DNA of 64,000 bases. Source: Planctomycetota bacterium (GTDB taxonomy: Bacteria; Planctomycetota; JAJSAM01). Position numbers and translations under genes: made by a program. The notes beneath the pieces are model-generated. The model saw only the letters and a program-made list of their open reading frames with translations. It was not told the origin of the DNA and did no database searches. The stretch covers positions 27,880 through 91,879 of the forward strand of contig JAJSAM010000024.1 in assembly GCA_024274785.1 (NCBI GenBank). The letters are read 5' to 3'. How positions within the stretch are numbered: the stretch's first letter is position 1; each line of letters opens with the position of its first letter. Shown here in pieces: positions 6,463 to 59,400 of this stretch.

Positions 6463-6466
6463 CCAG

Positions 6467-10459: not shown

Positions 10460-10461
10460 CG

Positions 10462-36919: not shown

Positions 36920-37885
36920 TCACCTCCCCAGGAGCTTCCTGGCGTGGACTTCCTTCAGGTGGCACTTCAGGCAGGCCCGCGGATCGGCCTCCAGTTCCAC
37001 GGGGTCGAGGTCGAGCAGTTCGGCAAACTCGTCGAGGTGGATTTTTGAGTCGATCGCCGGGACCTGCTCCGTGTCCTTGAAGCTCTTCCGCTCGTGGCAG
37101 AGCAGGCAGAAACGGCGATTTCCGTTCTTGAAGATCCTTCCCGCCACCTCGTTCTCGCGATGAAAGAAGTGGCAGGCCGTGCAGTCCATGAAGTTGTGCC
37201 GGCGGCCGGCGAAGTCGCCGACGATCTCCTGGTGACAGTCCGCGCAGGCGAAGATCACGGGGTGGTCGGGTGCTTCATGATGGCTCTTCTGAGGGCGTTT
37301 CTCGTGGCAGGTGACACATTCGTAGATCACCGGGTGCGTCCGGGCCTCCGCCACCCTCGTCAGGAGGAACACCGGTTCGTGCGGATCATGGCACTCGATG
37401 CACCGCGTTTTCGGGTCCGTCACCTTGAGGAATTCGTAGTGTGCGACGGGGTCTATCTGCGGGAAGTCGGCCGGGCGTGAGTTCAGGCGGCGATGGCAGA
37501 AGAGGCAGCCTTCGAGTGTGTACTCTTTCGGCATCAGGCGGGCGGGATCATCCTCCGCGGGCGGCCCCTCCCGATGAGCCCGCACATGCTCGGCGCCGGG
37601 GCCGTGGCAGTCCTCGCACTGCACATCGAAGTGGATGTCCTTCTGGTGAGTCTGGAGAATGCCGGCATGGCACTCTCCGCAGGTCTCCCGGCCCTGATGC
37701 AGGGGTTCCCGCGAGATGATGTCCTCGAGCACGGCCCGTTGATACTCACCGCCATCCCCGTATCCGTCAGGGCGCAAGACGGCCTGAATCACCAGTCCGA
37801 GCACCGTTGCAATTGCCAGGAGGATGACGACTCGAGTTACGTGGGCGTGGTCGTTGCGGTTGTTCCCGGCGGAAGATGCCCACAT
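36920..37885 (-). CDS. Membrane-anchored multiheme cytochrome c (nine CXXCH motifs)
   Basis: ATG at 37885 after AAGGAG; the GTG at 37906 is less likely. TM anchor VVILLAIATVLGLVIQAVL. CXXCH motifs: CGECH, CEDCH, CLFCH, CIECH, CVTCH, CADCH, CTACH, CLLCH, CLKCH. Confidence 0.85.
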   Translation of the reverse strand: MWASSAGNNRNDHAHVTRVVILLAIATVLGLVIQAVLRPDGYGDGGEYQRAVLEDIISREPLHQGRETCGECHAGILQTHQKDIHFDVQCEDCHGPGAEHVRAHREGPPAEDDPARLMPKEYTLEGCLFCHRRLNSRPADFPQIDPVAHYEFLKVTDPKTRCIECHDPHEPVFLLTRVAEARTHPVIYECVTCHEKRPQKSHHEAPDHPVIFACADCHQEIVGDFAGRRHNFMDCTACHFFHRENEVAGRIFKNGNRRFCLLCHERKSFKDTEQVPAIDSKIHLDEFAELLDLDPVELEADPRACLKCHLKEVHARKLLGR

Positions 37886-37970
37886 CTTGCTCTCCTTGAT
37901 GGCCACCCGGAACGGGTGGAGCAGGCAAGCATACGGAATGAAACGTATTGCAAGTGGGTATCACTCATCT

Positions 37971-38479: not shown

Positions 38480-38514
38480 GGCGCTTCTCCAGCTGAATCG
38501 GGGTGCAAAAGGCC

Positions 38515-38548
38515 GAGTATTACGGCTCTCGGCGGTGAAGACAAGGAT
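38515..38548 (-). promoter_or_regulatory. Candidate sigma70 promoter for rpmB (CTTGTCT-N16-TAATAC on the minus strand)
   Basis: Reverse complement of 38515-38548 reads cttgtcttcaccgccgagagccgtaatac, about 35 nt upstream of the rpmB ATG. Confidence 0.25.
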
Positions 38549-38584
38549 TTTCAGATAGGATCCCCGCCGCAGCTCATCGGCATT

Positions 38585-38968
38585 TCAGACCGGCCCCTCG
38601 CCGGTGGCCATCGCCATCGCCAGGTCCCGGGTGTGAGTGATGGAGACGAGCACCTGGACCACGCCGAGGGCCCGGGCGCGCTCGCCGGCCACTCCGAGAA
38701 GGTGTACCACCGGCACCCCGTCCGAGTCCTTCAGGACCTCTATGTCGCGAAAGCGGACACCCTTCGCCCATCCGGTCCCCAGAACCTTCATCACCGCTTC
38801 CTTCGCGGCGAAGCGGCCGGCCAGAAACGCATCCGGGGTGGATGAAGCGGCCAGCAACTCCCGCTCGGCGTCCGAGAGCACGCGCCGTTCGAATCGCTCA
38901 CCCAGGCGGGCCCGGCTTCCCCGGATCCGCTCAATCTCCACCGCGTCGATGCCGATGCCCCTGGCCAT
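38585..38968 (-). CDS. acpS: Holo-[acyl-carrier-protein] synthase (4'-phosphopantetheinyl transferase)
   Basis: MARGIGIDAVEIERI...FAAKEAVMKVLGTGWAKGVRFRDIEV matches the AcpS family. The ATG is at 38968 inside a longer artefactual ORF. Confidence 0.8.
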   Translation of the reverse strand: MARGIGIDAVEIERIRGSRARLGERFERRVLSDAERELLAASSTPDAFLAGRFAAKEAVMKVLGTGWAKGVRFRDIEVLKDSDGVPVVHLLGVAGERARALGVVQVLVSITHTRDLAMAMATGEGPV

Positions 38969-39086
38969 GACGGAAGGAAACCCGAGTGAGCGCTTCCTGG
39001 CAAGGAAGATTTCGTGACCACCGGGGTACAATCGTTCAGTCAAGTCGACTTTACACCTGTCGTAAGCGACGGCGCAGAAGGTACCC

Positions 39087-41234
39087 TTGGACGAGCTCCT
39101 GAAAGACGCCACGAAGGCCCAGATCGAAGCCATCACCCATCTCGAGGGCCCTCTGCTCGTCCTCGCCGGACCGGGCAGCGGCAAGACGCGCGTGGTGACC
39201 AGGCGCATCGCGTGGCTCGTGGAGCAGGGGGTGCCGCCCGAGCACATCCTGGCCATCACGTTCACGAACAAGGCCGCGGAGGAGATGCGGGATCGCGTGA
39301 ACGCGCTGCTCGATGCCCCCGGGATGTGGGTTTCCACGTTCCACTCGATGGGGGCCCGGATGCTGCGCCGATCCGCGAACCACATCGGCATGGACCGGTC
39401 GTTCACGATCTACGACGACTCCGATCAAAAGCGCGTCATCCGCGACATCATCAGGGACCTGAATCTCGATTCCACCCAGTTCAAGCCCAACGCCGTCGCC
39501 GGCAGGATCAGCCGCTTGAAGACGGACCTCATCACGCCGGCGAAGGCCGCGGCGGGGGCGCACGACTTTTTCACCGAGGCGGTCTCGAAGATCTACCCGA
39601 GGTACGAAAAGCGGCTCCTCGACAGCAATGGGATGGACTTCGACGATCTCCTGGTCAAGAACCTGAAACTCCTGACCGAGAGCGCGGACGCGCGCGAGTA
39701 CTACCAGCGCCGGTTCCGCTTTGTCCTCGTGGATGAGTACCAGGACACCAACCGCGTGCAGTTCCTCCTCTTGAAGACGCTGGCCGCGCCGCAGCAGAAC
39801 CTCCACGTCACCGGCGATCCGGATCAGTCCATCTATCGCTTTCGCGGCGCCGACATCCGCAACATTCTCGACTTCGAAATGGTCTACAAGGGTGCGCGCA
39901 TCATCCGCCTCCAGGAAAATTTCCGGTCGACGAGTCTCATCCTCAAGGGTGCGGACAGCTTGATCAGGAACAACCGGGAACGGAAGGAGAAGGAACTCGT
40001 CGGTACGCGGGAGGAGGGCCGGAAGATCCGCGTGCACGAATGCGAGGATGAGGAGGAGGAGGGCAACTTCATCGCGGACGAGGTGTTGACCGCTTTCTCC
40101 CGAGGCATCCCCTACTCGGAGATCGCCATCTTCTACCGCGTCCATTCCTTGTCCCGCTCGCTGGAGCGGGCGTTCCTCGACAAGGGCATCCCGTACACCA
40201 TTGTCCGCGGCACCGAGTTCTACCGGCGCGCCGAGGTGCAGGACCTGCTTGCGTACCTCAAGATCGTGGCGAACCCGCGGGATTCCGAGAACCTCCTGCG
40301 TATCCTGAACGTGCCGGCAAGGGGCATCGGGCAGGCCACCCGGGACCGCCTGCTCGCCTTCGCCATGGAGCGGGACGAGCCATTGCTCAAGGCGATCCTG
40401 AACGTGGACGGCGCGACCTCGATCAAGGGGCGGGGCCTTTCCGCCGTTTCGTCGTTGGCCGGGCTCTTCCGGCTGCTGCTCGGGATGGCCGGGAGACCCA
40501 TCGCCGACATCCTCACCGAACTGGTGGGGCGCACGGATTTCAAGGCTCACCTGAAAAGCAAGCACCCCGAGAGCCACGAGGATCGCTGGGAAAACGTCGC
40601 GCAACTGGTCTCGTCCGCAGCCGAATTCGAAGAGAAGCACGAAGGCGCCGGCCTCTCCGCCTATCTCGAGGAGGTTTCGCTCCTTTCCGATGTGGATCGC
40701 TTCGACCCGAAGGCCGCCCGCGTCTCCTTCATGACCCTGCACACCGCCAAGGGCCTGGAGTTCCAGACGGTCTTCGTGGCGGGCATGGAGGATGGGCTGC
40801 TGCCGCACTCCCGTTCCCGGGACTCCCGGCAGGAGATGGAGGAGGAGCGGCGACTGCTCTTCGTGGGCATGACCCGCGCCCGGGAGGAACTCACGTTGAG
40901 CCACGCCCAGCGCCGCTTCCGCTGGGGCGAGCACGGTTACTCCCGGCCGTCGTGCTTCTACGATGAGATCGACCCGGCGGCGGTGCAGCAGGATCTGCCC
41001 CCGATGGAGGACGTGTCGCACTTTTCCGTGGATCGTCTTGTCGAGCCGGAGCCCGATGCCGCCATCCGCACCGGCATGATGGTCCGGCACAGCCACTTCG
41101 GAGTGGGGCGCGTGCTGGATATCTCCGGATCCGGCCCCTCCACCCGCATCACGGTGGATTTCCAGAACCACGGACGGAAGAAGCTCGTCCTGATGTATGC
41201 GAACCTGAGTCCCATCGAGGAGGCTTCGTGGTAG
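39087..41234 (+). CDS. pcrA: ATP-dependent DNA helicase, UvrD/PcrA/Rep family
   Basis: TTG start. Motif I GPGSGKT, motif II DEYQDTN, FRGADI, and a conserved C-terminal region. Confidence 0.88.
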   Translation: MDELLKDATKAQIEAITHLEGPLLVLAGPGSGKTRVVTRRIAWLVEQGVPPEHILAITFTNKAAEEMRDRVNALLDAPGMWVSTFHSMGARMLRRSANHIGMDRSFTIYDDSDQKRVIRDIIRDLNLDSTQFKPNAVAGRISRLKTDLITPAKAAAGAHDFFTEAVSKIYPRYEKRLLDSNGMDFDDLLVKNLKLLTESADAREYYQRRFRFVLVDEYQDTNRVQFLLLKTLAAPQQNLHVTGDPDQSIYRFRGADIRNILDFEMVYKGARIIRLQENFRSTSLILKGADSLIRNNRERKEKELVGTREEGRKIRVHECEDEEEEGNFIADEVLTAFSRGIPYSEIAIFYRVHSLSRSLERAFLDKGIPYTIVRGTEFYRRAEVQDLLAYLKIVANPRDSENLLRILNVPARGIGQATRDRLLAFAMERDEPLLKAILNVDGATSIKGRGLSAVSSLAGLFRLLLGMAGRPIADILTELVGRTDFKAHLKSKHPESHEDRWENVAQLVSSAAEFEEKHEGAGLSAYLEEVSLLSDVDRFDPKAARVSFMTLHTAKGLEFQTVFVAGMEDGLLPHSRSRDSRQEMEEERRLLFVGMTRAREELTLSHAQRRFRWGEHGYSRPSCFYDEIDPAAVQQDLPPMEDVSHFSVDRLVEPEPDAAIRTGMMVRHSHFGVGRVLDISGSGPSTRITVDFQNHGRKKLVLMYANLSPIEEASW

Positions 41235-41259
41235 GCGCAAGCTCCATCGCGGTGATGGG

Positions 41260-43380
<2,121 letters not shown>

Positions 43381-43389
43381 GAAACTCCC

Positions 43390-45891
43390 ATGATTCGAAC
43401 TCCAGCCCTGATGGCCTGCCTGGTGCTCACCGTGGTGGCCTGCGACGCCGGCGTCGCCCCGCCCGCGCCGCCGTCGCCGGCCGTCGCATTTTCGCCCGAC
43501 CTGATTCGTACGAAAGAGTGGGAGATCTATCACCAGTGGGCCGGTCGCATCGCCGAGGTCGTCGCCGAGGTCGTCGATGAAGACGGTCAACCGTACGCCG
43601 GGGCGACCGTCTCCGTGATCATCCTTCCCCGGATGGAGGTTCTTCCGCCTCTGGTGATCGCCGTTCAAGTCAGCGACGAGAAGGGCGAGGTCCGCTTCGA
43701 GGATGTCCCCGGGAATGCCTTCCTCCGGATGGAGGCGGATGGGTTCGCGGGTGGCATGTTGGACCTGCAGTTCGCGATGAATCCGGACTTCGGATCACCG
43801 AAGATGCCCTTGCGCCGGGGCTCAGAGGTTTCGGGGCGGGTTCTCCTTCCGGATGGGACACCGGCCCCCGGCGTTCGGGTGATCGGCATGAGTTCGGTTC
43901 GCGACTGGTACGAGCTGGCGACGGCCGATGAGGATGGGCGGTATCGGTTGTACCCGGTTCCCGCGGGACAGATCATGCTGATGGCCATCCCCGGTGGGCC
44001 GATCGGTCAGTTGCCGCCGTTCGATGTCCCCACGGGCCTTGACGTCACCAGAGACTTGTCGGTCCGTGCGCTCTCGCCCATTCACGGGCGCGTGCTCGAT
44101 GCGAACACGGGAAAGCCGGTGGCCGGTGCGATCGCGCGGTCCTTTGTCGATCGGGATGTGCTCGTGGTGGCCGATGATGAGGGACGGTTCACCCTCGAAA
44201 ACGTCTACGGGCGGATGATCGACATCCTCGCTCCGGGCTATGCGGAACGCTCCGTTCCCGTCGATGCGATGCGGGCGGATGCCATCGATGTCGAGGTGAA
44301 GCTCGCCCCCGGTGTAACGGCCCGGGGGGTGGTGGTCGACGAAGAGGGCGCTCCGCGCGCCGGCGCGAGGGTCTTCGCGGTGGTGGATGTCGAGGGCGTC
44401 GGTCGCTATGTGCTTGGGCCGTTGACGGATGAGCTGGGACGGTTTGTCTGGAGTTGGATCGAACCCGCCCGGACCGGCGGGAAGATCGTCTTCGGCGCGG
44501 AGGGGGCGGGTCTGCTGCCGGTAGTCGGCTCGATCCATCCGCTCGTGCCGGGGATTTCGATCGACGACATTGTCCTGACCCTTCCGGAACCGTCCCGGCT
44601 TCGCTTTCGGTTGATCGATGAGCAGGGGGAACCCCTCGTCGATGCCGTCTGCCTGGCTGAGCCCGATCTGGAGGCCGTGCCGTCCGGGGTCAGGCCGATG
44701 GTCAACACCGGGGGGACGGCGGTCACCGCTGAAGATGGGAGCGCGCTGATGGCGGGGCTCCGGCGGGGCCCCCACTTCCTGAGCATCCTGCTCGGTCATC
44801 GCATCCCCTTCTCCACCGGGATCAATGTCGGCCCGGGGATGAACGACCTCGGCGACATCACGGTGCCGGACCTCCTGGCGATCGCGGGGCAGGTGCTCAG
44901 CACCGGCGGCGAGTTGCCGGATATGGTCAAGGCTTTCCTGTCGATCCCCGGTGAGAGCTTCCAGGCGGAGGTTCGTATCGGCAAGGATGGGAAGTTCCGG
45001 ATTTCCGGGCTGGCGGATCGGCAGTACGTGCTGCAACTGGCGGCGTCGGACCACCGGACCGTGACGAAGCGGTATGCCGCCGGCACCGAAGACATCCAGG
45101 TCCGGTTGACCCTCCTCGGGAAGCTCTCCGTTACCCCGCTGCTCGAAGGAGACGACCAGCCCGAGGGGCGGATCGAGATGGTGAGGGTGGGCGGTGCGGA
45201 AGCGCCGGTGATGCGGTTCTTCAACCGCCCGGGAGAGGCTGTCATGGCCAATCGGATGACGCCTGGAGACTGGTTCGTCCGCGTGAAGGCCGGTGAGTAC
45301 TATGGAGCGGCGAAGGTCACCGTCATCGGGGGGAAGTCGGAATCCGTTCAGGTTCAGCTTCACCCCGGCGGTACGATCCACGGGTTCGTCAGGAAGCCCG
45401 ACGGCACGCCCGCAAAGCGAATTGGAGTGCAGTACGACGGCGGCGAGGCCTGGGGCGTACACGGTGTTCCCGTGGGCGACGACGGGCAGTATCGATTGGT
45501 GGGCGTCCCCGCCGGCGAGGTCGAGTTGTTGACCCACCCGCGAGGGTTCGTTCCGTTTCGCAAGACGATCGTGGTGATCAACGGAGAGGAAACCCGGCAG
45601 GACATCGAACTCGATGCCGGGGGACGGTTCGAATTGCGCGTCACTGATCCGGACGGAAAACCCCTCTCCGCCGTGAAGGTCGGCCTGGCCGATGACCAGG
45701 GTGTGCCGGCCCGCTACTGGATCAGTGGGCAGGATCGAGCCCGGACCGATGAGGACGGCGTGCTGACCCTGACGGGAGTTCCACCGGGCAGCTATCGATT
45801 GAGCCTGCACATCAAGGACCAGCTTTGGGAATCGAGACAGGTGGACATTCCGGCGGGGGAGAGCAAGCTGGTCATCGAAATCGATCGGTAG
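43390..45891 (+). CDS. Large lipoprotein with about 8 tandem CarboxypepD_reg-like beta-sandwich domains
   Basis: Signal/lipobox LMACLVLTVVAC. Recurring about 80-aa modules with G(R/F)V.D..G.P..GA.V signatures (e.g. VSGRVLLPDGTPAPGVRV, IHGRVLDANTGKPVAGA, IHGFVRKPDGTPAKRIGV). Confidence 0.6.
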   Translation: MIRTPALMACLVLTVVACDAGVAPPAPPSPAVAFSPDLIRTKEWEIYHQWAGRIAEVVAEVVDEDGQPYAGATVSVIILPRMEVLPPLVIAVQVSDEKGEVRFEDVPGNAFLRMEADGFAGGMLDLQFAMNPDFGSPKMPLRRGSEVSGRVLLPDGTPAPGVRVIGMSSVRDWYELATADEDGRYRLYPVPAGQIMLMAIPGGPIGQLPPFDVPTGLDVTRDLSVRALSPIHGRVLDANTGKPVAGAIARSFVDRDVLVVADDEGRFTLENVYGRMIDILAPGYAERSVPVDAMRADAIDVEVKLAPGVTARGVVVDEEGAPRAGARVFAVVDVEGVGRYVLGPLTDELGRFVWSWIEPARTGGKIVFGAEGAGLLPVVGSIHPLVPGISIDDIVLTLPEPSRLRFRLIDEQGEPLVDAVCLAEPDLEAVPSGVRPMVNTGGTAVTAEDGSALMAGLRRGPHFLSILLGHRIPFSTGINVGPGMNDLGDITVPDLLAIAGQVLSTGGELPDMVKAFLSIPGESFQAEVRIGKDGKFRISGLADRQYVLQLAASDHRTVTKRYAAGTEDIQVRLTLLGKLSVTPLLEGDDQPEGRIEMVRVGGAEAPVMRFFNRPGEAVMANRMTPGDWFVRVKAGEYYGAAKVTVIGGKSESVQVQLHPGGTIHGFVRKPDGTPAKRIGVQYDGGEAWGVHGVPVGDDGQYRLVGVPAGEVELLTHPRGFVPFRKTIVVINGEETRQDIELDAGGRFELRVTDPDGKPLSAVKVGLADDQGVPARYWISGQDRARTDEDGVLTLTGVPPGSYRLSLHIKDQLWESRQVDIPAGESKLVIEIDR

Positions 45892-45943
45892 CTGGATCCG
45901 GCGGTCGAAGTTCCGGTTGGGGTGATATCGAGGAGGCATCGTC

Positions 45944-48589
45944 ATGTTGAACTTGAGGATCGACGATGAAAGCGGCTCGCGCAGTGTGCCGCTGCCCGGG
46001 GGGCCGGTGATCGTGGGGCGAGGCGAGAGTGCCGCGATCCGCCTGACCGAGGTCAAGGCCTCTCGAGAGCACCTCGAAATCCGGCCCCTCGGCAACGGCG
46101 TGGTGGTGCGGGATCTCGGATCGACCAACGGGACGTTCACGGAGGACCGGCGGATCCTGAAGGCCCGGCTCGGCTCCGGGGATGCCTTCCGCATCGGCGA
46201 CACGTGGATCACTCTGGAAGCGGAGCCGTCGCGCTCGGAACGTCAGCCGCGCAAGACTCCCGTCCCCGCGATCCTGCTTACGCTGCTGGCCCCCGCCCTG
46301 GTGCTGCTCATTCTCGGCGAGTTGGGAGTCTCCGCGATCGCATCGGCGCGGCAGGAGAAGATTGACTCAGCGATGCTTCGGATCGAACGCGTCGAGTTCG
46401 AGATGGCCGGTCGGGAGTCCGACCCGGAAAAGGCCGTGGCCGCCCTCGCTCGCTTCACCAGGCGGTATCCGCGCTCCCGGTACGCGCCGGAGGCTGATCG
46501 CCGCCAGGCGGAGATTCTGCCGACGGTGCGGCGGATGCAGATCGCCCGTCAGGAACTCGCCGAACTCGAAGCCGGGACGGAGCGGTACGCTTTCGAGGAA
46601 CTCTACTATCGGTACGAGAAGCTCTACGAGAGCTATCGTAGCCTGCCGGAGATCGCCGCCCGGATCGGCAGCCGGCTGGCCGACCTCGACCGGACGCATC
46701 GCGAGAAACTCGTGGCGATGGTCGATGCGGTTCGCGAAGAGGCGACGTCCCTTGCGGCGAAAGGGGAGTATGGTCGGGCGGTTTCGGCCCTGACCTCCTT
46801 CACCGTTCGGACGCCGGCGGCGGCGGCGAGTTTCAGGGAGGAGATCCGCTCGGCCGAGGCCGAGCTGATGCGGCGCGCGGAGAAGGCCTACCGCGAGTTG
46901 ACCGCCAATGCCGAAGGACTCGCCAGAGATGGCAAGACCGCGGAGGCGGCCGCATTGCTTCGTCGGGAAGCCCCGCGTTTCCTCGGGATCCGTTTCAGCG
47001 CTTTCCTCCGCCTGAGGGCCGATGACTTCGATAGTCGGGGCCGGCCCCGCAGTGCGAGGAAGGAAACCGTCGATCAGCTCACCCTGAGGCGCAGCTACTA
47101 CCTTCTGGCGCAGGAGGCCGAGGAACTCGCCGCCGCCGGGCTCTTCACCCGGGCCGCCGGGAAGTATCGCGGGATCCTCGAGTCGATCGCGCTGCCGGAG
47201 GTCCGGAAGGAGTTCTCGGAGCGTTCGGACGAGCTGTTCCGGCTCTCCGCGCTCATCGCCGACGTTCGCGGGAAGATCAAAGAACGCGGTTCGAAGTTCG
47301 GGTCGGTGAACTTCTCCGGCACGAGGGTCCGGGTCAAGGGCATCGTCGGCGACACGCTGCAACTCGAGATTGCAAAGCAACCGATCACCCGCCAGTGGGA
47401 CTCGCTCGAACCGCGGGAACTGCTGGCTCTGTTCCGCCGGGCACGGCTCACGAAAGAGCAGCGGCTCGATGTGGCGGTGTACTGTTTCGACATGAACCTG
47501 GCCGGGGCGTTCGAGGAGGAGATCCTGGCTGCGCTCGGCGAGGAGAGCCTGAAGGAGAAGGCCGGCCGGCTCTATGCCCACAAGCGGGGTGTTCGTTACC
47601 CCGAGGGCGGCTTTGTGGCCTACAAGGGCCGCATCCTGACCGGGGCGCAGTACGCCGAAGAGGTTCACAAGGAGCAGGTCGTGAAACTCCGGGTTCGCCA
47701 GGTGGAACTCCTGGAGCGGATCCAGGAGCAGCCGGTGATGAAGAAGCTCGCCCGGATGCGCGAACTCCGTCTGAAGCTCGACAAGGCCCGGAAGGTCGCG
47801 CTGGCCCTCATCTTCGACGAGCAGACCTACTTCTACCCCTATCGGGATCGCATGGCCGAGTACATCCCGGTACAGAAAGAGGTGAGCGAGCGCGTCGCCG
47901 TGGTGCGGGACATCTGGGACAACCCACTGAAGATCAGCACGAAGTCGGACCGGTCGGTGTCCTCGCTGCTCGACGAAGCGGACGAGTCCGTCAGGGCCCT
48001 CCGTGATCTGGGCATCGACCCCACCGCCTTCGCCGACCGCGTGGCGGCGATCCGGCTGTACCTGGGGCGGACCTTCACGATCAGGAACTACTTTCACGAC
48101 CAGGCCGAACTGGACCTCTTCACCTACAACGACCACGTTCTGGCTTATAACAAGACCGTCGAGTCGGTGGCGAAGAAGCTCGAGCGGAGACAGGTCGCCG
48201 TCACGAACGCATACCGCCTGATGATGGGACGCAACGCCCTGGTGCTCCACGACCTGCTCGTCCGGACCGCGCGGGGACACAGCGACGAGATGAACAAGCT
48301 CGGCTACTTCAGCCACTTCTCACCGACCGAGGAGCGGCGGACGCCGAACATGCGGGCGAAACTCGAGGGCTACAAGGCCACGGCGCTCTCCGAGAACATC
48401 CACCGCGGCTCCGGAACTCCGGAGGGGGCGCATGACAGTTGGATCCATTCGAGCGGCCACCACCGGAACATCCTGCAGAAGTTCTGGACGGAGATGGGCA
48501 CCGGTCAAGTCGGGAAATTCTGGACGCAGAACTTCGGTCGATCCCGGTTCAAACAGTTCGATCAGGAAGACAAGAACGAGAAGAAGTAG
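45944..48589 (+). CDS. FHA-domain / single-pass TM protein with a long periplasmic helical region and a C-terminal CAP (SCP/PR-1-like) domain
   Basis: AGGAGG RBS. FHA (VIVGRGESAAIRL...GSTNGTFTEDRRI). TM helix VPAILLTLLAPALVLLILGEL. C-terminal HSSGHHRNIL...WTEMGTGQVGKFWTQNFG is CAP-like. Confidence 0.7.
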   Translation: MLNLRIDDESGSRSVPLPGGPVIVGRGESAAIRLTEVKASREHLEIRPLGNGVVVRDLGSTNGTFTEDRRILKARLGSGDAFRIGDTWITLEAEPSRSERQPRKTPVPAILLTLLAPALVLLILGELGVSAIASARQEKIDSAMLRIERVEFEMAGRESDPEKAVAALARFTRRYPRSRYAPEADRRQAEILPTVRRMQIARQELAELEAGTERYAFEELYYRYEKLYESYRSLPEIAARIGSRLADLDRTHREKLVAMVDAVREEATSLAAKGEYGRAVSALTSFTVRTPAAAASFREEIRSAEAELMRRAEKAYRELTANAEGLARDGKTAEAAALLRREAPRFLGIRFSAFLRLRADDFDSRGRPRSARKETVDQLTLRRSYYLLAQEAEELAAAGLFTRAAGKYRGILESIALPEVRKEFSERSDELFRLSALIADVRGKIKERGSKFGSVNFSGTRVRVKGIVGDTLQLEIAKQPITRQWDSLEPRELLALFRRARLTKEQRLDVAVYCFDMNLAGAFEEEILAALGEESLKEKAGRLYAHKRGVRYPEGGFVAYKGRILTGAQYAEEVHKEQVVKLRVRQVELLERIQEQPVMKKLARMRELRLKLDKARKVALALIFDEQTYFYPYRDRMAEYIPVQKEVSERVAVVRDIWDNPLKISTKSDRSVSSLLDEADESVRALRDLGIDPTAFADRVAAIRLYLGRTFTIRNYFHDQAELDLFTYNDHVLAYNKTVESVAKKLERRQVAVTNAYRLMMGRNALVLHDLLVRTARGHSDEMNKLGYFSHFSPTEERRTPNMRAKLEGYKATALSENIHRGSGTPEGAHDSWIHSSGHHRNILQKFWTEMGTGQVGKFWTQNFGRSRFKQFDQEDKNEKK

Positions 48590-48648
48590 CTCCGGGGATT
48601 CCCGGAAGGTCAGGCAGCGCAGGAAGCCACAGCAGGAAGTCACGATCC

Positions 48649-49953
48649 ATGTCCAAGCTGACTATTCACGAGAACGAGCGCGCAACCGTCTACGAGATCC
48701 TCGAGGATTCCCTCACGATCGGGTCCCGGCAGGGCTGCGGGATCAGAGTGAGCGATCCGGTGGTCTCCTCCGAGCATTGCCAGATCACGCTGGTGCCCGG
48801 GGTGGGCTACAAGCTGATCGATCTCGAGAGCCGGGACGGAACGAAGGTCAATGGCGCCTACGTCAACCAGCACCTGCTCCGGGAGGGTGACGTTATCCAG
48901 ATCGGCGCCGTCCGGATCAGCTTCACCGGCGGAGCGCCCGCAACTTCGGCTCCCGGGCCCGCTGCCGCCCCGGTCGCCGCCAGTCCCGCGGTTCCGGCCG
49001 CCCCGGCGCGTCCCGTTCCCGCGGCCGCCCCGGTCCGGCCCGCGCGCCCGTCCGCCCGGCCGAAGTACGCCGGCTATCCCTCGGAGCCGCCGCGTGAGTA
49101 CCGCCAGCCAAGGCGAGGCCGTGGGGGGGACAGCAGCGCCATCATCCTGATGGGAGTGGCCGTCGGTCTGTTGCTCGTGGTGGTCATCGTCATTGCCGTC
49201 GTCAGTTCCGGATCCGGAGCTACCGGCAACGAGAGGATCCTCCTGGAGATGGAGCAGCTGATGTCCAACCATCGGTACCAGGAAGCCATCGACCTCGCCG
49301 GGCAGGCCGACCCCACCGGTGATCCGAGCACCCTGGCCAAGATCGAGTTGAACAAGCAGGGTGCCGCGAACCTGAAGGCAAGGAAGGGCGGGATCAACGC
49401 GGAGAATGCCGCCCTGGTTGCCTACCAGAGAGTCGAGAGTTGGATCCAGAAGCATCGGCAGGACATCCCCGGCTCCATCAAGCAGTGGGAAACCATGGCC
49501 CGCGACCACGCCGGCACCCACTGGGCCTTCAAGGCAAAGCGGAACATGGACGCCCTCCTTTCCGGCGGCCGGAACCCCGAGGGGATTACGCTCTACCCCG
49601 GTGGTGCGGCCACCATCGACCGAGCCTTCACCGAGGTCCAGACGAACGCGAAGGCTCTGGAGGAACAGGAGAAGTTCCAGGCCGTCATCACCTCCTTCTT
49701 CGACTTCTGGGAGGAATACAAGCTCAAGACCACCGACCTGGCGACCTGGGAGAAACGGGTCCAGGACGAGGTCAAGGCCGTCGAGCGTCGAGCCGAATCC
49801 CGCTGGGAGAGTCTGGACTCCCTCGCGAAGCAGTATGTGAAGAACGGTGAGTACGACGCCGCAAAGCGGATGTACCGGAAGGTCACGGACAATTTCGGAA
49901 TCGAGAAGTACGTGGTGCAGGCCGAGGCGGCGCTGAAGAAGATCGGGCGTTAG
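48649..49953 (+). CDS. FHA-domain protein with a Pro/Ala-rich linker, a TM helix and a periplasmic domain
   Basis: FHA (LTIGSRQGCGIRV...ESRDGTKVNGAYV). Linker PAAAPVAASPAVPAAPARPVPAAAPVRP. TM helix AIILMGVAVGLLLVVVIVIAVV. About 230 aa lie outside the membrane. Confidence 0.7.
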   Translation: MSKLTIHENERATVYEILEDSLTIGSRQGCGIRVSDPVVSSEHCQITLVPGVGYKLIDLESRDGTKVNGAYVNQHLLREGDVIQIGAVRISFTGGAPATSAPGPAAAPVAASPAVPAAPARPVPAAAPVRPARPSARPKYAGYPSEPPREYRQPRRGRGGDSSAIILMGVAVGLLLVVVIVIAVVSSGSGATGNERILLEMEQLMSNHRYQEAIDLAGQADPTGDPSTLAKIELNKQGAANLKARKGGINAENAALVAYQRVESWIQKHRQDIPGSIKQWETMARDHAGTHWAFKAKRNMDALLSGGRNPEGITLYPGGAATIDRAFTEVQTNAKALEEQEKFQAVITSFFDFWEEYKLKTTDLATWEKRVQDEVKAVERRAESRWESLDSLAKQYVKNGEYDAAKRMYRKVTDNFGIEKYVVQAEAALKKIGR

Positions 49954-50047
49954 GGGACGCGCAAGAATAACCACGGGATTCGAGGGTCGCCGCTGCATCC
50001 CGCCCGGCTGCGTGCTCGTCGGTTGAGACCGGCCAGGCTTCGCTCCG

Positions 50048-51154
50048 CTACTCCTCGTCCCGCCCGCCTTTCCGGCGCTCCACCAACTCTTCGATCCTGT
50101 GCTCGAGTGCGGCGATCCGGTCGAGGAGGATCTCGTTGGTCTTGTCGATCTGCTCGTTCCGCATTTCGAGGTGCTGGGCGAAACGTTCCATGTGCATCGC
50201 CATCTCCTCGAATCGTCGCTCCATCTCTTCGATGCGCCGGTCCGTCTCCTCGAAGCGCCGGTCCGTCTCCTCGAAGCGCTCGTCCGTCTCCTCGAAGCGC
50301 CGGTCCGTCTCCTCGAAGCGCCGGTCCGTCTCCTCGAAGCGCTCGTCCGTCTCCTCGAAGCGCCGGTCCGTCTCCTCGAAGCGCCGGTCCGTCTCCTCGA
50401 AGCGCCGGTCCGTCTCCTCGAAGCGCTCGTCCGTCTCCTCGAAGCGCCGGTTGACGTTCCGCTCCCGTTCCCGCTCGTCGTCGACTTCAGGACGCCGACG
50501 GTCCTTCCGGTGAGCCCGAAGGAACCGCTCCGCCTCTTCACCGGGGATCCCAAGCCGCTCGGCCAGGTGGATGAACTCGCGGCGAAGCTCGCGCGTCTCG
50601 TCCTCACGGCGTTCCTCACGGAACGGCCGCGCTCGCTCGGTCCGTTCGCGGGTTCCGGCGGATCGCCGTTCGAGTTCGAGTCGTCTCTTCCCCCGACGGA
50701 ATGCCTCTTCCAGTTCCTCACCCCGAAGCCCCTGCGCCTTGAGCTCCCGCTCCAGTTCCTCGAGTCGTTCCGCCCGTTCCCGCTCTTCCCCGCCCCGGAC
50801 CGGCCGCGGTTCAACGCGATCCGCGAGGATCCGCTCGAGCTGCTCCGCCCGATTGAGGAGCTTCTCCCAGCCCTCGTAGCGCTCCGCAATGGCGCCGAGC
50901 TGCTCTCGGGAAGCATCGAATCGCCCGGCGTCGATCAGCGTCTCGACCAGGAGCAGGTGAGACCGGGGTGTGAAGACGGCGTCGTCCGGCCACTCCCGAA
51001 TGACGAGCCGGAAGGCGTCGATCGCCTCCTCCAGCTTCCCCTGTTCCTTCAGAGCGCAGGCGCGTTCCAGGTGCGTGGCGATCTCGCCTTCCGCCAGGAG
51101 GTTGCCCGACAGGGCGACAAGCAGGGTGAGGGCGATCATGACCCGGATGTACAT
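50048..51154 (-). CDS. Secreted Arg/Glu-rich protein with an N-terminal TPR-like region and a heptad tandem-repeat region (RRFEETD)n
   Basis: ATG at 51154 after AAGGAGACG. Signal peptide MYIRVMIALTLLVALSGNLLAEG. Ten perfect plus two degenerate RRFEETD/ERFEETD heptads. Confidence 0.65.
   Translation of the reverse strand: MYIRVMIALTLLVALSGNLLAEGEIATHLERACALKEQGKLEEAIDAFRLVIREWPDDAVFTPRSHLLLVETLIDAGRFDASREQLGAIAERYEGWEKLLNRAEQLERILADRVEPRPVRGGEERERAERLEELERELKAQGLRGEELEEAFRRGKRRLELERRSAGTRERTERARPFREERREDETRELRREFIHLAERLGIPGEEAERFLRAHRKDRRRPEVDDERERERNVNRRFEETDERFEETDRRFEETDRRFEETDRRFEETDERFEETDRRFEETDRRFEETDERFEETDRRFEETDRRIEEMERRFEEMAMHMERFAQHLEMRNEQIDKTNEILLDRIAALEHRIEELVERRKGGRDEE
50203..50457 (-). 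repeat. 21-bp in-frame tandem repeat, about 12 copies, two alternating variants
   Basis: Plus-strand units gcgccggtccgtctcctcgaa and gcgctcgtccgtctcctcgaa repeated head-to-tail. They encode RRFEETD / ERFEETD on the minus strand. Confidence 0.85.
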
Positions 51155-51222
51155 GGCAACGTCTCCTTGCGCGATTGTCCGATGTACCAGCATAACCGCG
51201 AGTCGGCGAAGGTCGAATGAGA

Positions 51223-51822
51223 TCACCGCAAGAGGCGCGCGAGGACGACACCGGCGAGCTCCATCGGCGGTTCATCCCCACGTACGACCAGGTCCGCTCG
51301 CGTGCGTTCGGGTTCAACGAATTCGGAGAACATCACGGCCACTGAGGTCGACCATTGGATCCGGACGGATTCTTCGGTGCGCCCTCGCTCCCGCGTATCC
51401 CGCTCGATGCGGCGCGCCAGCCGGACCGAATCCTCGAGGTCGACGAAGACCATGCCGTCGAGGAGCGCCCTCAGCCCCGGGTACGCGCCGATCAGCGTGC
51501 CCTCGATCAGGACCACCTCACGAGGCTCGACCCGGATCGGTTTCGGGGTACGTGTGTGCGTGGTCATGTCGTAGACCGGTCGTGGAATCGCTCGTCCGTC
51601 TTCGAGCGCTCGAACGTGTGCAGCGAGCAGGTCGAATTCGATGGCGTCCGGGTGATCGAAGTTCCTCGTGGCGCGAGCTTCAGGCTCGAGATGCGCGAGG
51701 TCGCGGTAGTAGTCATCCTGGCGCAGGATGGAGGTTGATTCCTTACCGAGGAGGGTGGCGACCGCACCAAGCAGCGTCGACTTGCCGGATCCCGATCCTC
51801 CCGTGATGCCGAGAACTCTCAA
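51223..51822 (-). CDS. udk: Uridine kinase
   Basis: TTG start at 51822 after GGAGGAG. P-loop GITGGSGSGKST. PRK/uridine-kinase motifs (QDDYY, DHPDAIEFDL). Confidence 0.75.
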   Translation of the reverse strand: MRVLGITGGSGSGKSTLLGAVATLLGKESTSILRQDDYYRDLAHLEPEARATRNFDHPDAIEFDLLAAHVRALEDGRAIPRPVYDMTTHTRTPKPIRVEPREVVLIEGTLIGAYPGLRALLDGMVFVDLEDSVRLARRIERDTRERGRTEESVRIQWSTSVAVMFSEFVEPERTRADLVVRGDEPPMELAGVVLARLLR

Positions 51823-51930
51823 GGCCTCTCCTCCGGGGAGAGCACCGTGCGATCCGCCGCGGCATCGAAGGCCGTGCGTTCGATCGGGGGAGGACCGACG
51901 GCGGGAGTTTCCGTCGGAAGGACGCAACCA

Positions 51931-57435: not shown

Positions 57436-59400
57436 ATGCACATAGATCAAGAGACAGACGGCCCGTTCTTCTGGATTCTCGCCGGAGTGGTGATGCTCCT
57501 GCTCATCGCCGGTCTGGCGCTCCGGGTCAACCCTTCCATTCCCGATCAGCTCGGGCTCGACCTCGAGCGCAGCCTGATCCCCGTGTCCTACCTCGATCTC
57601 GTGGGGCTCGGGCTCTTCCTTCTGGTGCTCTACGCGGCGACGAAGCGACGACTGGCGCTGCGGTTGGCGTTGTCGCTTCGAAAACTGAAACGGGAGCTTC
57701 GGGAACGGAAGATCGAATTCGATGAACTGGATGCGGTTTTCGAAGTCTCGTCGCGAATCAACTCCTTCAGCAGCATGGAGGACGCGCTCGAGTTCATCGC
57801 CCGCCGCTCCATGGAGTGTTTCGGCGGTGATCGCTCCTCGGTACTGCTCGTGGACGGCGACATGCTGGTGCTGAGAGCGGCCGCGGGCCGGAAGCTGGGG
57901 CTGCTCCGCGGCGTGCGCATGCCGATCGGCGGGGGAATCGCGGGTTGGGTGGCCCAGCACCATCGTCCGCTCCTCCTGAACAGTCCCGACGACGTGGAGG
58001 AGTTTCTGCCCGAGCGGCATCCCGATCGGAACATATCCTCCGCGATCTGCGTGCCGCTTCTCTACAAAGGGGATGCGCTCGGGGTGCTGAACGTCACCCG
58101 GCTCGGTGGAGGACGCGAAAGACGATTCGAAGACCGCCACCTGCGGCTCCTGACGATCTATGCGGACTACGCTTCGAGTGCGCTCAAGAACATCCGAATG
58201 TATCGGGCGGTGACCAGCGCCCACTCCCGGCTCGAACGCTCCTTCCGGGATCTGAAGATGGTGCAGGACCAGCTGATCCAGGCGGAGAAGATGTCAGCGG
58301 TGGGGCAGCTGATCTCCGAGGTCAGCCATGAACTGAACAATCCCCTCACGACCGTCCTCGGATACGCGCAGCTCGTGGCGAAGGTCAACCGGGACTCGGA
58401 CATCGCCGAGTATCTGGGGACGATCCGGGACGAAGGGCTGCGGTGTCAGGCGATCATCCGGAATCTGCTCGATTTCGCCCGGAAGCACAAGGGGGAACGC
58501 GTCCCGGTCGAAGTGAACGATGTGATGGAGCACACGCTGAATCTGAGGCGATACCAGCTCGGGATCGACGGCATCGAGGTCGAGATCGCGCACACGCCGG
58601 ATCTGTCGACCATACTCGCCGATCCCACCAGCTTGCAGCAGGTTCTTCTGAACCTGCTGAACAATGCCCATCACGCGGTGCGCGGCGGCGAGAAGCCCGG
58701 GTGGATCCGGTTCAGCTCCAGCCTGGAAGAGGGCGACGGCGGAGTCACGATCGAGATCGAGGACAACGGACCCGGCATCCCCGATGAGTATCTGGAGCGC
58801 GTGTTCGATCCCTTCTACACCACGAAGGACAAGGGGGAGGGCACCGGCCTCGGCCTGTCGGTCTGTCGTGGAATCATCGATGAACTGGGAGGCCGGATCG
58901 TTGCGACCCGCGGCGGGCAGGGAGGCGCCCTGTTCCGCGTTCTGCTTCCGGTGGGCGCGCAGCAGCACGAGATCATCCCCGATGCCCTCGAGGAGTGTCC
59001 GGAAGGGGTGAGTGGAAAGCGAATCCTCATCGTGGACGACGACGCGAAAATCCGCGAGATGCTCGATCGGGCACTTCGGCTCGATGACCACCGGGTCCGG
59101 GCGGTGGAGAGCGGCGACAAGGCCCTCGACGCGCTCGACCACGGGGAGTTCGACCTGGTTCTCTCCGACCTGATGATGCCCGGAATGACCGGTTTCGAAC
59201 TCTTCGAGAAGGTCCGCGAGACGCACGAGGAACTGGCGGACAGATTCATCTTCCTGACCGGCGCCGCGCTGCCCGAGGAGCGTCGCGTGTTCTTGCGGAA
59301 GAGCGGCCGGCCGGTCATTCAGAAACCGTTCCGCCTGGATGAACTGCGCCGCGCGATCCGGGCTTCGTTCCTGGTCGCGGACCTGGAGAGACCTCAGTAG
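57436..59400 (+). CDS. Hybrid sensor histidine kinase (TM - GAF - HisKA - HATPase - REC)
   Basis: H-box EVSHELNNPLTTV. N, G1 and G2 boxes (NLLNNAHHA, DNGPGIP, GTGLGLS). C-terminal receiver KRILIVDDD...DLVLSDLMMPGMTG. Confidence 0.85.
   Translation: MHIDQETDGPFFWILAGVVMLLLIAGLALRVNPSIPDQLGLDLERSLIPVSYLDLVGLGLFLLVLYAATKRRLALRLALSLRKLKRELRERKIEFDELDAVFEVSSRINSFSSMEDALEFIARRSMECFGGDRSSVLLVDGDMLVLRAAAGRKLGLLRGVRMPIGGGIAGWVAQHHRPLLLNSPDDVEEFLPERHPDRNISSAICVPLLYKGDALGVLNVTRLGGGRERRFEDRHLRLLTIYADYASSALKNIRMYRAVTSAHSRLERSFRDLKMVQDQLIQAEKMSAVGQLISEVSHELNNPLTTVLGYAQLVAKVNRDSDIAEYLGTIRDEGLRCQAIIRNLLDFARKHKGERVPVEVNDVMEHTLNLRRYQLGIDGIEVEIAHTPDLSTILADPTSLQQVLLNLLNNAHHAVRGGEKPGWIRFSSSLEEGDGGVTIEIEDNGPGIPDEYLERVFDPFYTTKDKGEGTGLGLSVCRGIIDELGGRIVATRGGQGGALFRVLLPVGAQQHEIIPDALEECPEGVSGKRILIVDDDAKIREMLDRALRLDDHRVRAVESGDKALDALDHGEFDLVLSDLMMPGMTGFELFEKVRETHEELADRFIFLTGAALPEERRVFLRKSGRPVIQKPFRLDELRRAIRASFLVADLERPQ

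What the first reader, a model, noticed from the sequence alone, without database searches (positions are those of the whole stretch)
47900..48589. CAP/SCP/PR-1 domain placed at the periplasmic C-terminus of an FHA-TM protein
CAP domains are mostly eukaryotic secreted proteins; bacterial examples are usually stand-alone secreted proteins. Here a CAP-like domain (HSSGHHRNIL...GKFWTQNFG) sits at the end of an 881-aa protein whose cytoplasmic N-terminus is an FHA domain. This architecture would couple a periplasmic ligand-binding or sterol/lipid-binding fold to phospho-Thr signalling.
Basis: partly seen in the sequence, partly recalled or inferred. Interest (0 to 1): 0.5.

Follow-up and report, generated by a model that had tools for sequence, protein, structure and literature searches.

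The report
Membrane-anchored FHA protein with periplasmic CAP head
The gene really does encode a single-pass membrane protein with a phospho-threonine-reading FHA domain inside the cell and a CAP/YkwD-type domain on a long helical stalk outside. It belongs to a large, uncharacterised family found in Planctomycetota, encoded next to two other FHA proteins, so it is a new domain combination of known parts rather than a new kind of system.

Summary
ORF 45944-48589 (+) encodes 881 aa: an FHA domain (aa 1-93, canonical pThr-binding residues), one transmembrane helix (aa ~105-132), a TPR-like helical stalk (133-555), an unannotated helical bundle (556-744) and a YkwD-type CAP domain (745-866).

- **Active site:** the His/Glu tetrad is only partly kept. 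H791, E817 and H839 are conserved; the second Glu is replaced. H779, R804 and H840 are extra near-invariant residues.
- **Family size:** the architecture is not a one-off. There are 1146 50%-identity clusters at E<=1e-30, and 124 of the best 150 carry FHA plus CAP. Of 35 genomic loci, 33 are labelled Planctomycetota or a lineage within it.
- **Gene cluster:** the gene sits between an FHA-GAF-sigma54 activator and a shorter FHA-TM paralogue.
- **Topology:** relatives with signal peptides in place of FHA-TM support a periplasmic head.

My best reading is a kinase-recruited envelope scaffold whose CAP head binds or processes cell-wall or periplasmic material. DalA and PrgA are the precedents. The mechanism is inferred, not shown. 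Sterol binding is unsupported.

The parts
45944..48589 (+). Whole gene: 881-aa bitopic FHA-TM-stalk-CAP protein
   Evidence: ORF. SD GAGGAGG at 45930-45936. GC3 0.85. Identical protein P0001 and six homologues of 44-70% identity with the same Pfam architecture.
45944..46222 (+). Cytoplasmic FHA domain (aa 1-93) with G25-R26, S40-x-x-H43 and N62-G63-T64
46256..46339 (+). Single transmembrane helix (aa ~105-132)
   Evidence: The only 19-aa window with Kyte-Doolittle hydropathy above 1.6 in the protein. The same feature follows FHA in 123 of 124 FHA+CAP representatives.
46340..47608 (+). Periplasmic all-alpha TPR-like stalk (MID1, aa 133-555) with a small beta insert at aa 453-484
47609..48175 (+). 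Family-specific helical bundle (MID2, aa 556-744) with invariant LIFDExKYFYPY...EY motif. No Pfam family and no PDB match.
   Evidence: Invariant R616 A619 L622 I623 D625 Y629 Y631 P632 Y640 W658 across 33 loci. Modelled as one rigid unit with CAP (pLDDT 96, pTM 0.90). No structural match outside CAP. Found together with CAP in 147 of 150 top representatives and never alone.
48176..48541 (+). YkwD-type CAP/SCP domain (aa 745-866)
48649..49953 (+). Downstream partner: 434-aa FHA, Pro/Ala-rich linker, TM, helical periplasmic domain. A paralogue of the first ~360 aa of the FHA-CAP protein.
   Evidence: Pfam FHA E 7e-15. TM at aa ~160-185. Immediately downstream in most loci. hhalign A1 vs A5 E 9e-32, periplasmic parts alone E 4.6e-8.
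41260..43380 (+). Upstream FHA-GAF-sigma54 enhancer-binding protein (706 aa), conserved neighbour
   Evidence: Pfam FHA, GAF, Sigma54_activat, HTH_8. Upstream of the CAP gene in 25 of the 35 genome-scan loci L007-L041, including members without FHA-TM. The gene-call contexts agree where the contig reaches that far.
43390..45891 (+). Lipoprotein with 7 CarboxypepD_reg beta-sandwich repeats (833 aa). Present between the activator and the CAP gene only in the closer relatives.
   Evidence: Pfam CarboxypepD_reg, 7 stretches, E 1e-48. N-terminus MIRTPALMACLVLTVVAC reads as a lipobox. Present in L001-L016-type loci and absent from the more distant ones.

Best explanation
The gene encodes a bitopic inner-membrane protein. 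Its N-terminal FHA domain faces the cytoplasm. A ~420-residue TPR-like helical stalk projects a rigid 'head' into the periplasm. The head is a helical bundle fused to a YkwD-type CAP domain.

I propose that it works inside-out:
1. A Hanks-type Ser/Thr kinase phosphorylates a membrane-proximal target, or itself.
2. The FHA domains of this protein and of its shorter co-encoded paralogue dock on the pThr sites. This assembles or positions a heteromeric stalk complex.
3. The CAP head then binds, or possibly trims, peptidoglycan or another periplasmic polymer or protein through its invariant His/Glu/Ser/Arg, probably Zn-binding, site.
4. The co-encoded FHA-GAF-sigma54 activator reads the same kinase input and adjusts transcription.

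What is shown: the domain architecture, the folds, conservation of the site residues, the family size, the Planctomycetota labelling of 33 of 35 loci, the conserved gene cluster, and the paralogy of the two membrane proteins.

What is inferred: the topology (strongly), pThr binding, heteromer formation, the ligand of the CAP head, and the direction of signalling.
For: - **Architecture and folds:**
- **Periplasmic head:** signal-peptide or lipobox variants of the same MID2+CAP module exist. 39 of 56 long non-FHA members have a hydrophobic N-terminus.
- **CAP site under strong selection:** H779, H791, R804 and H839 are 259/259, E817 is 257/259. H791 and H839 align with GAPR-1 H54 and H103, which form the proposed Zn site (PMC7554809).
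- **Conserved cluster:** ACPS-UvrD-[FHA-sigma54 EBP]-[CpDreg]-FHA-CAP-FHA-TM-...-LptF/G across 35 MAG loci. This points to a core envelope-related role.
- **Paralogy of the two membrane proteins:**
- **Candidate writers and eraser:** an STK-PP2C-STK cluster lies in the same window at 6410-13883.
Against: - There is no experimental data for any family member, and all sequences come from MAGs or metagenomes.
- No kinase is conserved inside the cluster. STK motifs lie at variable distances in only some loci.
- About a third of family members have substitutions at the FHA pThr-contact Arg or Ser (R26 in 87/130, S40 in 89/130). pThr reading may therefore not be universal in the family.
- Charge distribution around the TM helix is symmetric (4 K/R on each side). 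Topology therefore rests on domain logic and on the signal-peptide variants.
- I could not inspect model coordinates. The spatial clustering of the invariant residues, and any contact of the YFYPY loop with the CAP groove, are untested.
- The DalA model hits at only 23.5 bits. Peptidoglycan binding is an analogy, not homology-based transfer.
Confidence: 0.45

Rival explanations
1. Outside-in sensor. The CAP head binds a periplasmic ligand, such as a muropeptide, a metal or a lipid. Ligand binding changes the oligomeric state or accessibility of the cytoplasmic FHA domain. That in turn sequesters or releases a pThr-bearing partner and so controls the neighbouring FHA-sigma54 activator.
For:
- The FHA-sigma54 activator lies next to the CAP gene in 25 of the 35 genome-scan loci.
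- The activator carries FHA and GAF regulatory domains.
- The CAP site is strictly conserved, as expected of a ligand site.
Against: - FHA domains are readers with no catalytic output. Characterised bacterial FHA proteins receive kinase signals (established knowledge for FhaA, GarA, Rv1747, EmbR and Fha1; these appear as structural neighbours).
- Signal-peptide variants of the stalk-head protein have no cytoplasmic part, yet still sit next to the activator (L028, L032, L040). The head evidently functions without transmitting through its own TM helix.
- No sigma54-type promoter was detected above chance in the window.
Confidence: 0.2
2. The CAP head is an enzyme. It would be a metal-regulated Ser/His hydrolase, PrgA-like, held on a stalk. 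It would process a periplasmic or outer-membrane protein, for example the co-encoded CarboxypepD_reg-repeat lipoprotein, or cleave cell-wall peptides. FHA docking would control where and when it acts.
For: - S836 is invariant close to H839, alongside H791 and E817. This resembles the S476/H477/H412 site proposed for the PrgA CAP domain, which coordinates Zn and whose S476A mutant loses self-degradation and surface exclusion (bioRxiv 10.1101/2020.06.18.156562).
- A beta-sandwich repeat lipoprotein is encoded immediately upstream in the closer relatives. This parallels PrgA and its substrate PrgB.
Against: - Protease activity of CAP domains is contested. PrgA did not cleave PrgB or BSA in vitro (same preprint).
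- Here the Ser is two to three residues before the His, not adjacent to it.
- The lipoprotein gene is missing from about two thirds of the loci.
- Geometry was not checked because no coordinates were available.
Confidence: 0.15
3. A purely structural subunit of a trans-envelope machine, built like YscD/EscD or GltG. The FHA domain would serve as a phospho-independent protein-protein module, and the paralogous pair would form an inner-membrane platform.
For: - The GltG model hits the FHA region.
- About a third of family members have degenerate pThr-contact residues.
- The protein is one of a paralogous pair of FHA-TM proteins.
Against: - No secretion-system or gliding genes were found among the neighbouring genes I scanned or in the four gene-called relative loci. 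The wider loci were checked only for window homologues.
- The periplasmic part is all-alpha TPR-like, not made of ring-building motifs.
- This protein keeps every canonical pThr-binding residue.
- The GltG and YscD hits cover the FHA region only.
Confidence: 0.12
4. A sterol- or lipid-binding CAP domain, as in yeast Pry1 or tablysin-15, linking membrane-lipid status to signalling.
For: - Eukaryotic CAP proteins bind sterols and fatty acids (PMC5442454 cites this for the family).
- Some Planctomycetes make sterols (my own knowledge, not tested here).
Against: - The domain is a minimal ~120-aa YkwD type.
- The long loop between the Trp and the Gly-His motif of eukaryotic CAPs is reduced here to W833-x-H-S-S-G-H839. 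To my knowledge that loop region carries the sterol-binding motif; I did not test this here.
- I did not see sterol-synthesis genes among the window ORFs I annotated, which covers only part of the window.
- The nearest bacterial structures have no reported lipid function.
Confidence: 0.05

Closest known systems
Bacterial YkwD-type CAP/SCP proteins: B. anthracis 4IFA, Borrelia BB0689 (4D53), S. aureus SAV1118 (4H0A)
   Different: Those are secreted proteins or lipoproteins. Here CAP is the C-terminal tip of an 881-aa bitopic protein, fused to a family-specific helical bundle, with a cytoplasmic FHA domain. Family-specific residues are H840 (Arg in 4IFA) and S837 (Glu in 4IFA).
DalA (RSP_1200) of Rhodobacter sphaeroides, a divisome-associated YkwD/CAP lipoprotein
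   Same: A CAP-domain protein in the periplasm of a diderm bacterium. The NCBIfam DalA model aligns to aa 738-858 (E 4e-5). DalA binds peptidoglycan non-covalently and affects division and envelope integrity (PMC10470522, PMC5442454).
   Different: DalA is a ~170-aa outer-membrane lipoprotein without FHA, TM helix or stalk. The score of 23.5 bits is far below the 200-bit cut-off, so this protein is not an orthologue.
Enterococcal PrgA (6Z9L/6Z9K)
   Different: PrgA is plasmid-encoded and Gram-positive, with an LPXTG anchor. Its CAP domain is inserted in the middle of a two-helix coiled coil, and it has no cytoplasmic domain. There is no detectable sequence relationship beyond the fold.
Mycobacterial FhaA (Rv0020c) and FhaB/FipA (Rv0019c) in the PknB cell-wall pathway
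   Different: To my knowledge, no CAP domain or long periplasmic stalk is described for FhaA or FipA. The NCBIfam score of 47.6 is below the 125 cut-off. The kinase genes are not in the same operon here.
YscD/EscD (T3SS) and GltG/GltJ (Myxococcus gliding): FHA-TM-periplasmic scaffold proteins
   Same: The same overall plan: cytoplasmic FHA, a single TM helix, a large periplasmic region, and in Glt a paralogous pair. Pfam PF16697 scores above its cut-off.
   Different: To my knowledge, the periplasmic parts of YscD and GltG are built on other, non-TPR folds. The matches here cover the FHA region only. No secretion or motility genes were seen among the neighbouring genes scanned.

Membership tests
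CAP/SCP/PR-1 superfamily (Pfam PF00188) | Profile-HMM match above the curated threshold | tested here: met
   34.6 bits against GA 21.1, E 4e-8, aa 752-854. A family profile against 4IFA gives E 6e-20.
CAP/SCP/PR-1 superfamily (Pfam PF00188) | Alpha-beta-alpha sandwich fold | tested here: met
CAP/SCP/PR-1 superfamily (Pfam PF00188) | His-Glu-Glu-His tetrad in the central cavity | tested here: inconclusive
   H791 and H839 align to GAPR-1 H54 and H103. E817 lies in the SEN motif, which I equate with the conserved GEN motif. The HMMER alignment does not itself pair the two motifs. All three residues are invariant or nearly so. The second Glu position is occupied by S836/S837. Spatial geometry was not checked because no coordinates were available.
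CAP/SCP/PR-1 superfamily (Pfam PF00188) | Extracytoplasmic location | tested here: met
   This is prediction only: a single TM helix after a cytoplasmic FHA domain, and homologous heads carried behind Sec signal peptides or lipoboxes.
CAP/SCP/PR-1 superfamily (Pfam PF00188) | Cysteine-rich with disulfides (eukaryotic members) | tested here: not met
   There is one Cys in the whole protein (C514) and none in the CAP domain. From my own knowledge, low cysteine content is usual for bacterial YkwD-type members, so I do not treat this as disqualifying.
YkwD family (TIGR02909) | Score above the NCBIfam cut-off | tested here: not met
   67.2 bits against a cut-off of 171. The protein is related to YkwD but is not a member of the spore-associated YkwD subfamily.
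FHA domain (PF00498) | HMM match, beta-sandwich fold, and the conserved Gly-Arg, Ser-x-x-His and Asn-Gly-Thr pThr-binding residues | tested here: met
FHA domain (PF00498) | Binding of phospho-threonine peptides | not testable with these tools
   Needs ITC or peptide arrays. R26 and S40 are substituted in about a third of the wider family.
DalA (NF052539) | Equivalog score; small outer-membrane lipoprotein | tested here: not met
   23.5 bits against a cut-off of 200. This is an 881-aa TM-anchored protein without a lipobox.
FhaB/FipA (NF049868), GltG (NF033760), TagH (TIGR03354) | Equivalog score over the full length | tested here: not met
   47.6 against 125, 39.1 against 650, and 19.1 against 120. 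All matches are confined to the FHA region.
YscD/EscD T3SS inner-ring protein (PF16697 cytoplasmic domain) | FHA-like cytoplasmic domain, periplasmic ring-building motifs, and a T3SS gene context | tested here: not met
   The PF16697 hit of 44.1 bits overlaps the stronger FHA hit. The periplasmic region is all-alpha. No T3SS genes were seen among the neighbouring genes scanned or in the gene-called relative loci.
Known anti-phage defence systems (PADLOC) | Any PADLOC model hit | tested here: not met
   No hit for the FHA-CAP protein, its partner or the lipoprotein. The only hit is the generic AAA+/HTH match of the sigma54 activator.

The most novel reading that the evidence does not exclude
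The paralogous FHA-TM pair with its CAP head, together with the FHA-sigma54 activator, could be the core of an uncharacterised cell-envelope growth or division control system in Planctomycetota. Hanks kinases would recruit a peptidoglycan-binding stalk complex to sites of wall synthesis. It would be a functional counterpart of the mycobacterial PknB-FhaA/FipA pathway combined with a DalA-like wall binder, in a phylum whose division machinery is, to my knowledge, still poorly understood.
Probability: 0.12. Interest if true: 0.75.

Novelty: new variant of a known kind. Interest (0 to 1): 0.45.

Why it matters
Bacterial CAP (YkwD) domains are widespread but biochemically almost unknown. The domains I found described are secreted or lipid- or wall-anchored, with no cytoplasmic link.

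This family hard-wires a strictly conserved CAP site to a cytoplasmic phospho-threonine reader. It places it in a conserved operon with two further FHA proteins, one of them a sigma54 transcription activator.

That gives three things:
- a tractable handle on what bacterial CAP domains do;
- an example of a multi-reader Ser/Thr phospho-signalling module spanning the envelope;
- a candidate core envelope system in uncultured Planctomycetota, encoded beside housekeeping genes (UvrD, ACPS, LptF/G).

It also defines an unannotated helical domain (aa 556-744, LIFDExKYFYPY motif) that was always found with this CAP subtype.

Tried and rejected
- **Sigma54 promoter scan.** TGGCACG-N4-TTGCW with up to 2 mismatches gave 4 hits against 6.5 expected, none near the cluster. 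No regulatory inference is possible.
- **Sigma70 promoter and terminator scan of 38500-50300.** At or below chance. Operon structure rests only on the short gaps of 9-59 bp.
- **Rfam and tRNA scans of the window.** Nothing found, so there is no taxonomic marker.
- **PADLOC.** No defence-system match.
- **AFDB Foldseek.** The library was not available.
- **Exact look-up of P0001's contig.** Not on record. Cluster-member look-ups gave only generic names.
- **Literature.** Searches for FHA+CAP, YkwD and Planctomycetes+FHA+sigma-54 found no description of this architecture. I read only the result tables of these searches. The YkwD list appeared to be mostly Bacillus secretion and expression studies.
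- **Full-length AF2 with 7 sequences.** The CAP region came out at pLDDT 30-50. This was solved by a deeper 85-sequence alignment of the C-terminal module.
- **Conserved kinase in the cluster.** STK motifs occur only in some loci and at variable distance, so this idea was rejected.
- **Long antisense ORFs overlapping the gene** (43822-46212, 796 aa, untested; 46367-48316, 649 aa, untested). I take these to be shadow ORFs typical of 65% GC DNA. They were passed over by the GC3-based gene selection. Two other long antisense ORFs in the cluster (41149-43131 and 39051-41279) had no Pfam hit.
- **L036/L037 'fusion' of the sigma54 AAA+ domain to the CAP protein.** The sequence downstream of the AAA+ motifs looks frameshifted, and the called protein on the L037 contig is 550 aa. 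I did not pursue it as a real architecture.
Full report
**1. The observation**

The + strand ORF 45944-48589 encodes 881 aa. A GAGGAGG ribosome-binding site lies 8 nt upstream. GC3 is 0.85 against GC2 0.44, the coding signature.

Pfam finds FHA at aa 22-85 (E 1.2e-13). It finds CAP PF00188 at aa 752-854 (E 4e-8, 34.6 bits against a gathering score of 21.1). NCBIfam gives its best hit to the YkwD model (aa 745-864, E 1.3e-18) and a weak one to DalA (E 4e-5). The C-terminal 199 aa hit the B. anthracis SCP-domain structure 4IFA at E 6e-11.

Hydropathy shows exactly one TM-grade segment, at aa ~105-132. The protein has a single cysteine. The only correction is that the stated coordinates (aa 653-881) are wider than the CAP domain (aa 745-866, nt 48176-48541).

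**2. Structure**

A full-length AF2 model from 7 sequences was confident for the FHA domain and for a long all-helical region, but poor for CAP. I then collected more relatives and modelled aa 553-881 with an 85-sequence alignment. That model reached pLDDT 96.2 and pTM 0.90.

- **Helical bundle before CAP (aa 556-744, 'MID2').** It has no Pfam family and no PDB match. The pTM of 0.90 indicates that it and CAP form one rigid unit.

**3. Active-site residues**

A profile alignment to GAPR-1 pairs H791 with H54 and H839 with H103. These are the two histidines proposed to bind Zn in GAPR-1 (PMC7554809). The corresponding pair was seen holding Zn in PrgA.

I equate E817, in the SEN motif, with the Glu of the conserved GEN motif. 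The HMMER alignment does not itself pair the two motifs. The second tetrad Glu has no counterpart here; its position is S836/S837.

Across 259 family CAP domains, H779, H791, R804 and H839 are 100% invariant. E817 and S836 are 257/259 and H840 is 255/259. The site is therefore under very strong selection, but it is a variant of the canonical tetrad. I had no access to coordinates, so its geometry is untested.

**4. The family**

A word-indexed search with the full protein found only 7 clusters with the FHA+CAP architecture.

The exhaustive profile search found 1146 50%-identity representatives at E<=1e-30. I built my own sub-HMMs for FHA, MID1, MID2 and CAP. With them, 124 of the best 150 representatives carry FHA plus MID2 plus CAP. 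Of these, 123 have a hydrophobic segment after FHA. The rest are N-terminally truncated fragments or signal-peptide or lipoprotein forms.

A scan of species-representative genomes gave 35 loci. Thirty-three are labelled Planctomycetota or a lineage within it, two are labelled 'uncultured bacterium', and all are MAGs.

A second architectural class of 550-600 aa lacks FHA-TM and starts with a Sec-type signal peptide or lipobox. 39 of 56 long members have such an N-terminus. This is independent support for a periplasmic head.

MID2 and this CAP subtype always occur together. MID2 carries an invariant LIFDExKYFYPY...EY motif.

**5. Gene context**

In the window and in relatives the order is: ACPS(-), UvrD, FHA-GAF-sigma54 activator, [7x CarboxypepD_reg lipoprotein in the closer relatives], FHA-TM-CAP, FHA-TM-helical protein, and a few kb on (MsbA) LptF LptG. 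Gaps are 9-59 bp.

The activator lies upstream of the CAP gene in 25 of the 35 genome-scan loci. These include distant members that lack FHA-TM (L028, L032, L040).

The downstream 434-aa protein is a paralogue of the first ~360 aa of the FHA-CAP protein. hhalign gives E 9e-32 overall. With FHA and TM removed it still gives Prob 94.9% and E 4.6e-8 over 95 columns. The cluster thus encodes three FHA readers and no kinase.

An STK (1349 aa, with TPR), a PP2C phosphatase and a second STK lie 32 kb upstream in the same window (6410-13883). Kinase linkage is not conserved across loci.

No sigma54 promoter, sigma70 promoter or terminator signal exceeded chance. There is no PADLOC hit for the membrane proteins.

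**6. How it most likely works**

*Shown:* the architecture, the folds, the conserved site, the family, the context and the paralogy.

*Inferred:*
- N-in/C-out topology. This is a strong inference.
- The FHA domain binds pThr. All canonical contact residues are present in this protein. R26 and S40 are substituted in about a third of the wider family.

In the characterised bacterial FHA proteins I know of, the FHA domain receives the kinase signal. The stalk-head protein also still occurs without any cytoplasmic part. I therefore favour an inside-out model.

In that model, Hanks-kinase phosphorylation recruits or clusters the two paralogous FHA-TM proteins. This positions the periplasmic CAP head, which binds or trims a wall or periplasmic component. 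The FHA-sigma54 activator reads the same input.

There are two functional precedents for the head. DalA is a YkwD/CAP lipoprotein that binds peptidoglycan and localises to the divisome (PMC5442454, PMC10470522). PrgA is a stalk-mounted, Zn-binding CAP head proposed to be a protease (bioRxiv 10.1101/2020.06.18.156562).

The rivals are an outside-in sensor, a hydrolase head, a phospho-independent structural scaffold of the YscD/GltG type, and sterol or lipid binding. Each is listed with evidence and refutation tests. Sterol binding is the least supported.

**7. Comparison and novelty**

The protein is a member of the CAP superfamily (YkwD-like) and of the FHA family by profile and by fold. It is not a member of DalA, spore YkwD, FhaB/FipA, GltG, TagH or YscD, because the curated cut-offs or defining features are not met.

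I found no paper describing the FHA-TM-stalk-CAP architecture. Databases name these proteins only 'FHA domain-containing protein', 'CAP domain-containing protein' or 'YkwD'.

It is a new domain combination, with a new accessory domain, inside a known design class: FHA-anchored bitopic envelope proteins. I rate it a new variant of a known kind and of moderate interest.

**8. Caveats**

- All sequences are metagenomic and there are no experimental data.
- Topology and pThr binding are predicted.
- The count of 1146 includes fragments.
- My sub-HMMs were built from 7 sequences.
- The residue mapping to the tetrad rests on a weak (E 0.05) but structurally consistent profile alignment.

Noticed in passing
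window 6410-13883 (+): A Ser/Thr signalling cluster: a 1349-aa Hanks kinase with double zinc ribbon and TPR repeats (6410-10459), a 660-aa PP2C phosphatase with a CarboxypepD_reg domain (10462-12444), and a second kinase (within 11997-13883). These are possible writers and eraser for the three FHA readers 32 kb downstream. The layout is reminiscent of the mycobacterial pstP-pknA-pknB arrangement.
   Followed up: partly
window 50048-51226 (-), repeat at 50203-50451: A 392-aa protein with an N-terminal TPR followed by a 21-bp tandem repeat (11.9 copies, 91% match) that encodes RRFEETD heptads. This gene and the adjacent uridine kinase (51223-51927) are absent from the 70%-identical relative L001. 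There the FHA-TM partner is followed directly by the glycosyltransferase.
   Followed up: partly
window 41260-43380 (+): A sigma54 enhancer-binding protein with an N-terminal FHA domain and a GAF domain, so it is apparently a phospho-threonine-regulated activator. It is conserved next to the CAP gene in 25 of the 35 genome-scan loci. No sigma54-type promoter was found above chance in the window.
   Followed up: partly
window 43390-45891 (+): An 833-aa predicted lipoprotein (lipobox VVAC) made of seven CarboxypepD_reg beta-sandwich repeats, with a weak hit to the anammox Kustd1514 S-layer glycoprotein model. It is present in the cluster only in the closer relatives.
   Followed up: partly
window 47609-48175 (aa 556-744 of the FHA-CAP protein): A helical domain with no Pfam family and no PDB structural match, carrying an invariant LIFDExKYFYPY...EY motif. 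It was always found fused to this CAP subtype and is a candidate new domain family.
   Followed up: yes
L036 8417-10909 and L037 8405-10963: Long ORFs that appear to fuse the sigma54 AAA+ domain to the CAP protein. The sequence downstream of the AAA+ motifs looks frameshifted, and the called protein on the L037 contig is 550 aa. These are probably assembly indels rather than a real fusion.
   Followed up: partly
window 36920-37906 (-) and 57436-59400 (+): A multi-haem cytochrome c (paired CXXCH, cytochrome c7/c3 models) and a hybrid GAF-HisKA-HATPase-receiver histidine kinase. The kinase is conserved downstream of LptF/G in L001 as well.
   Followed up: no
window 43822-46212 (-), 46367-48316 (-), 48640-50916 (-): Very long antisense ORFs (796, 649 and 758 aa) overlapping the real genes. 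They were not selected by the GC3-based gene picking and were not scanned against Pfam. I read them as shadow ORFs typical of 65% GC DNA rather than genes.
   Followed up: partly
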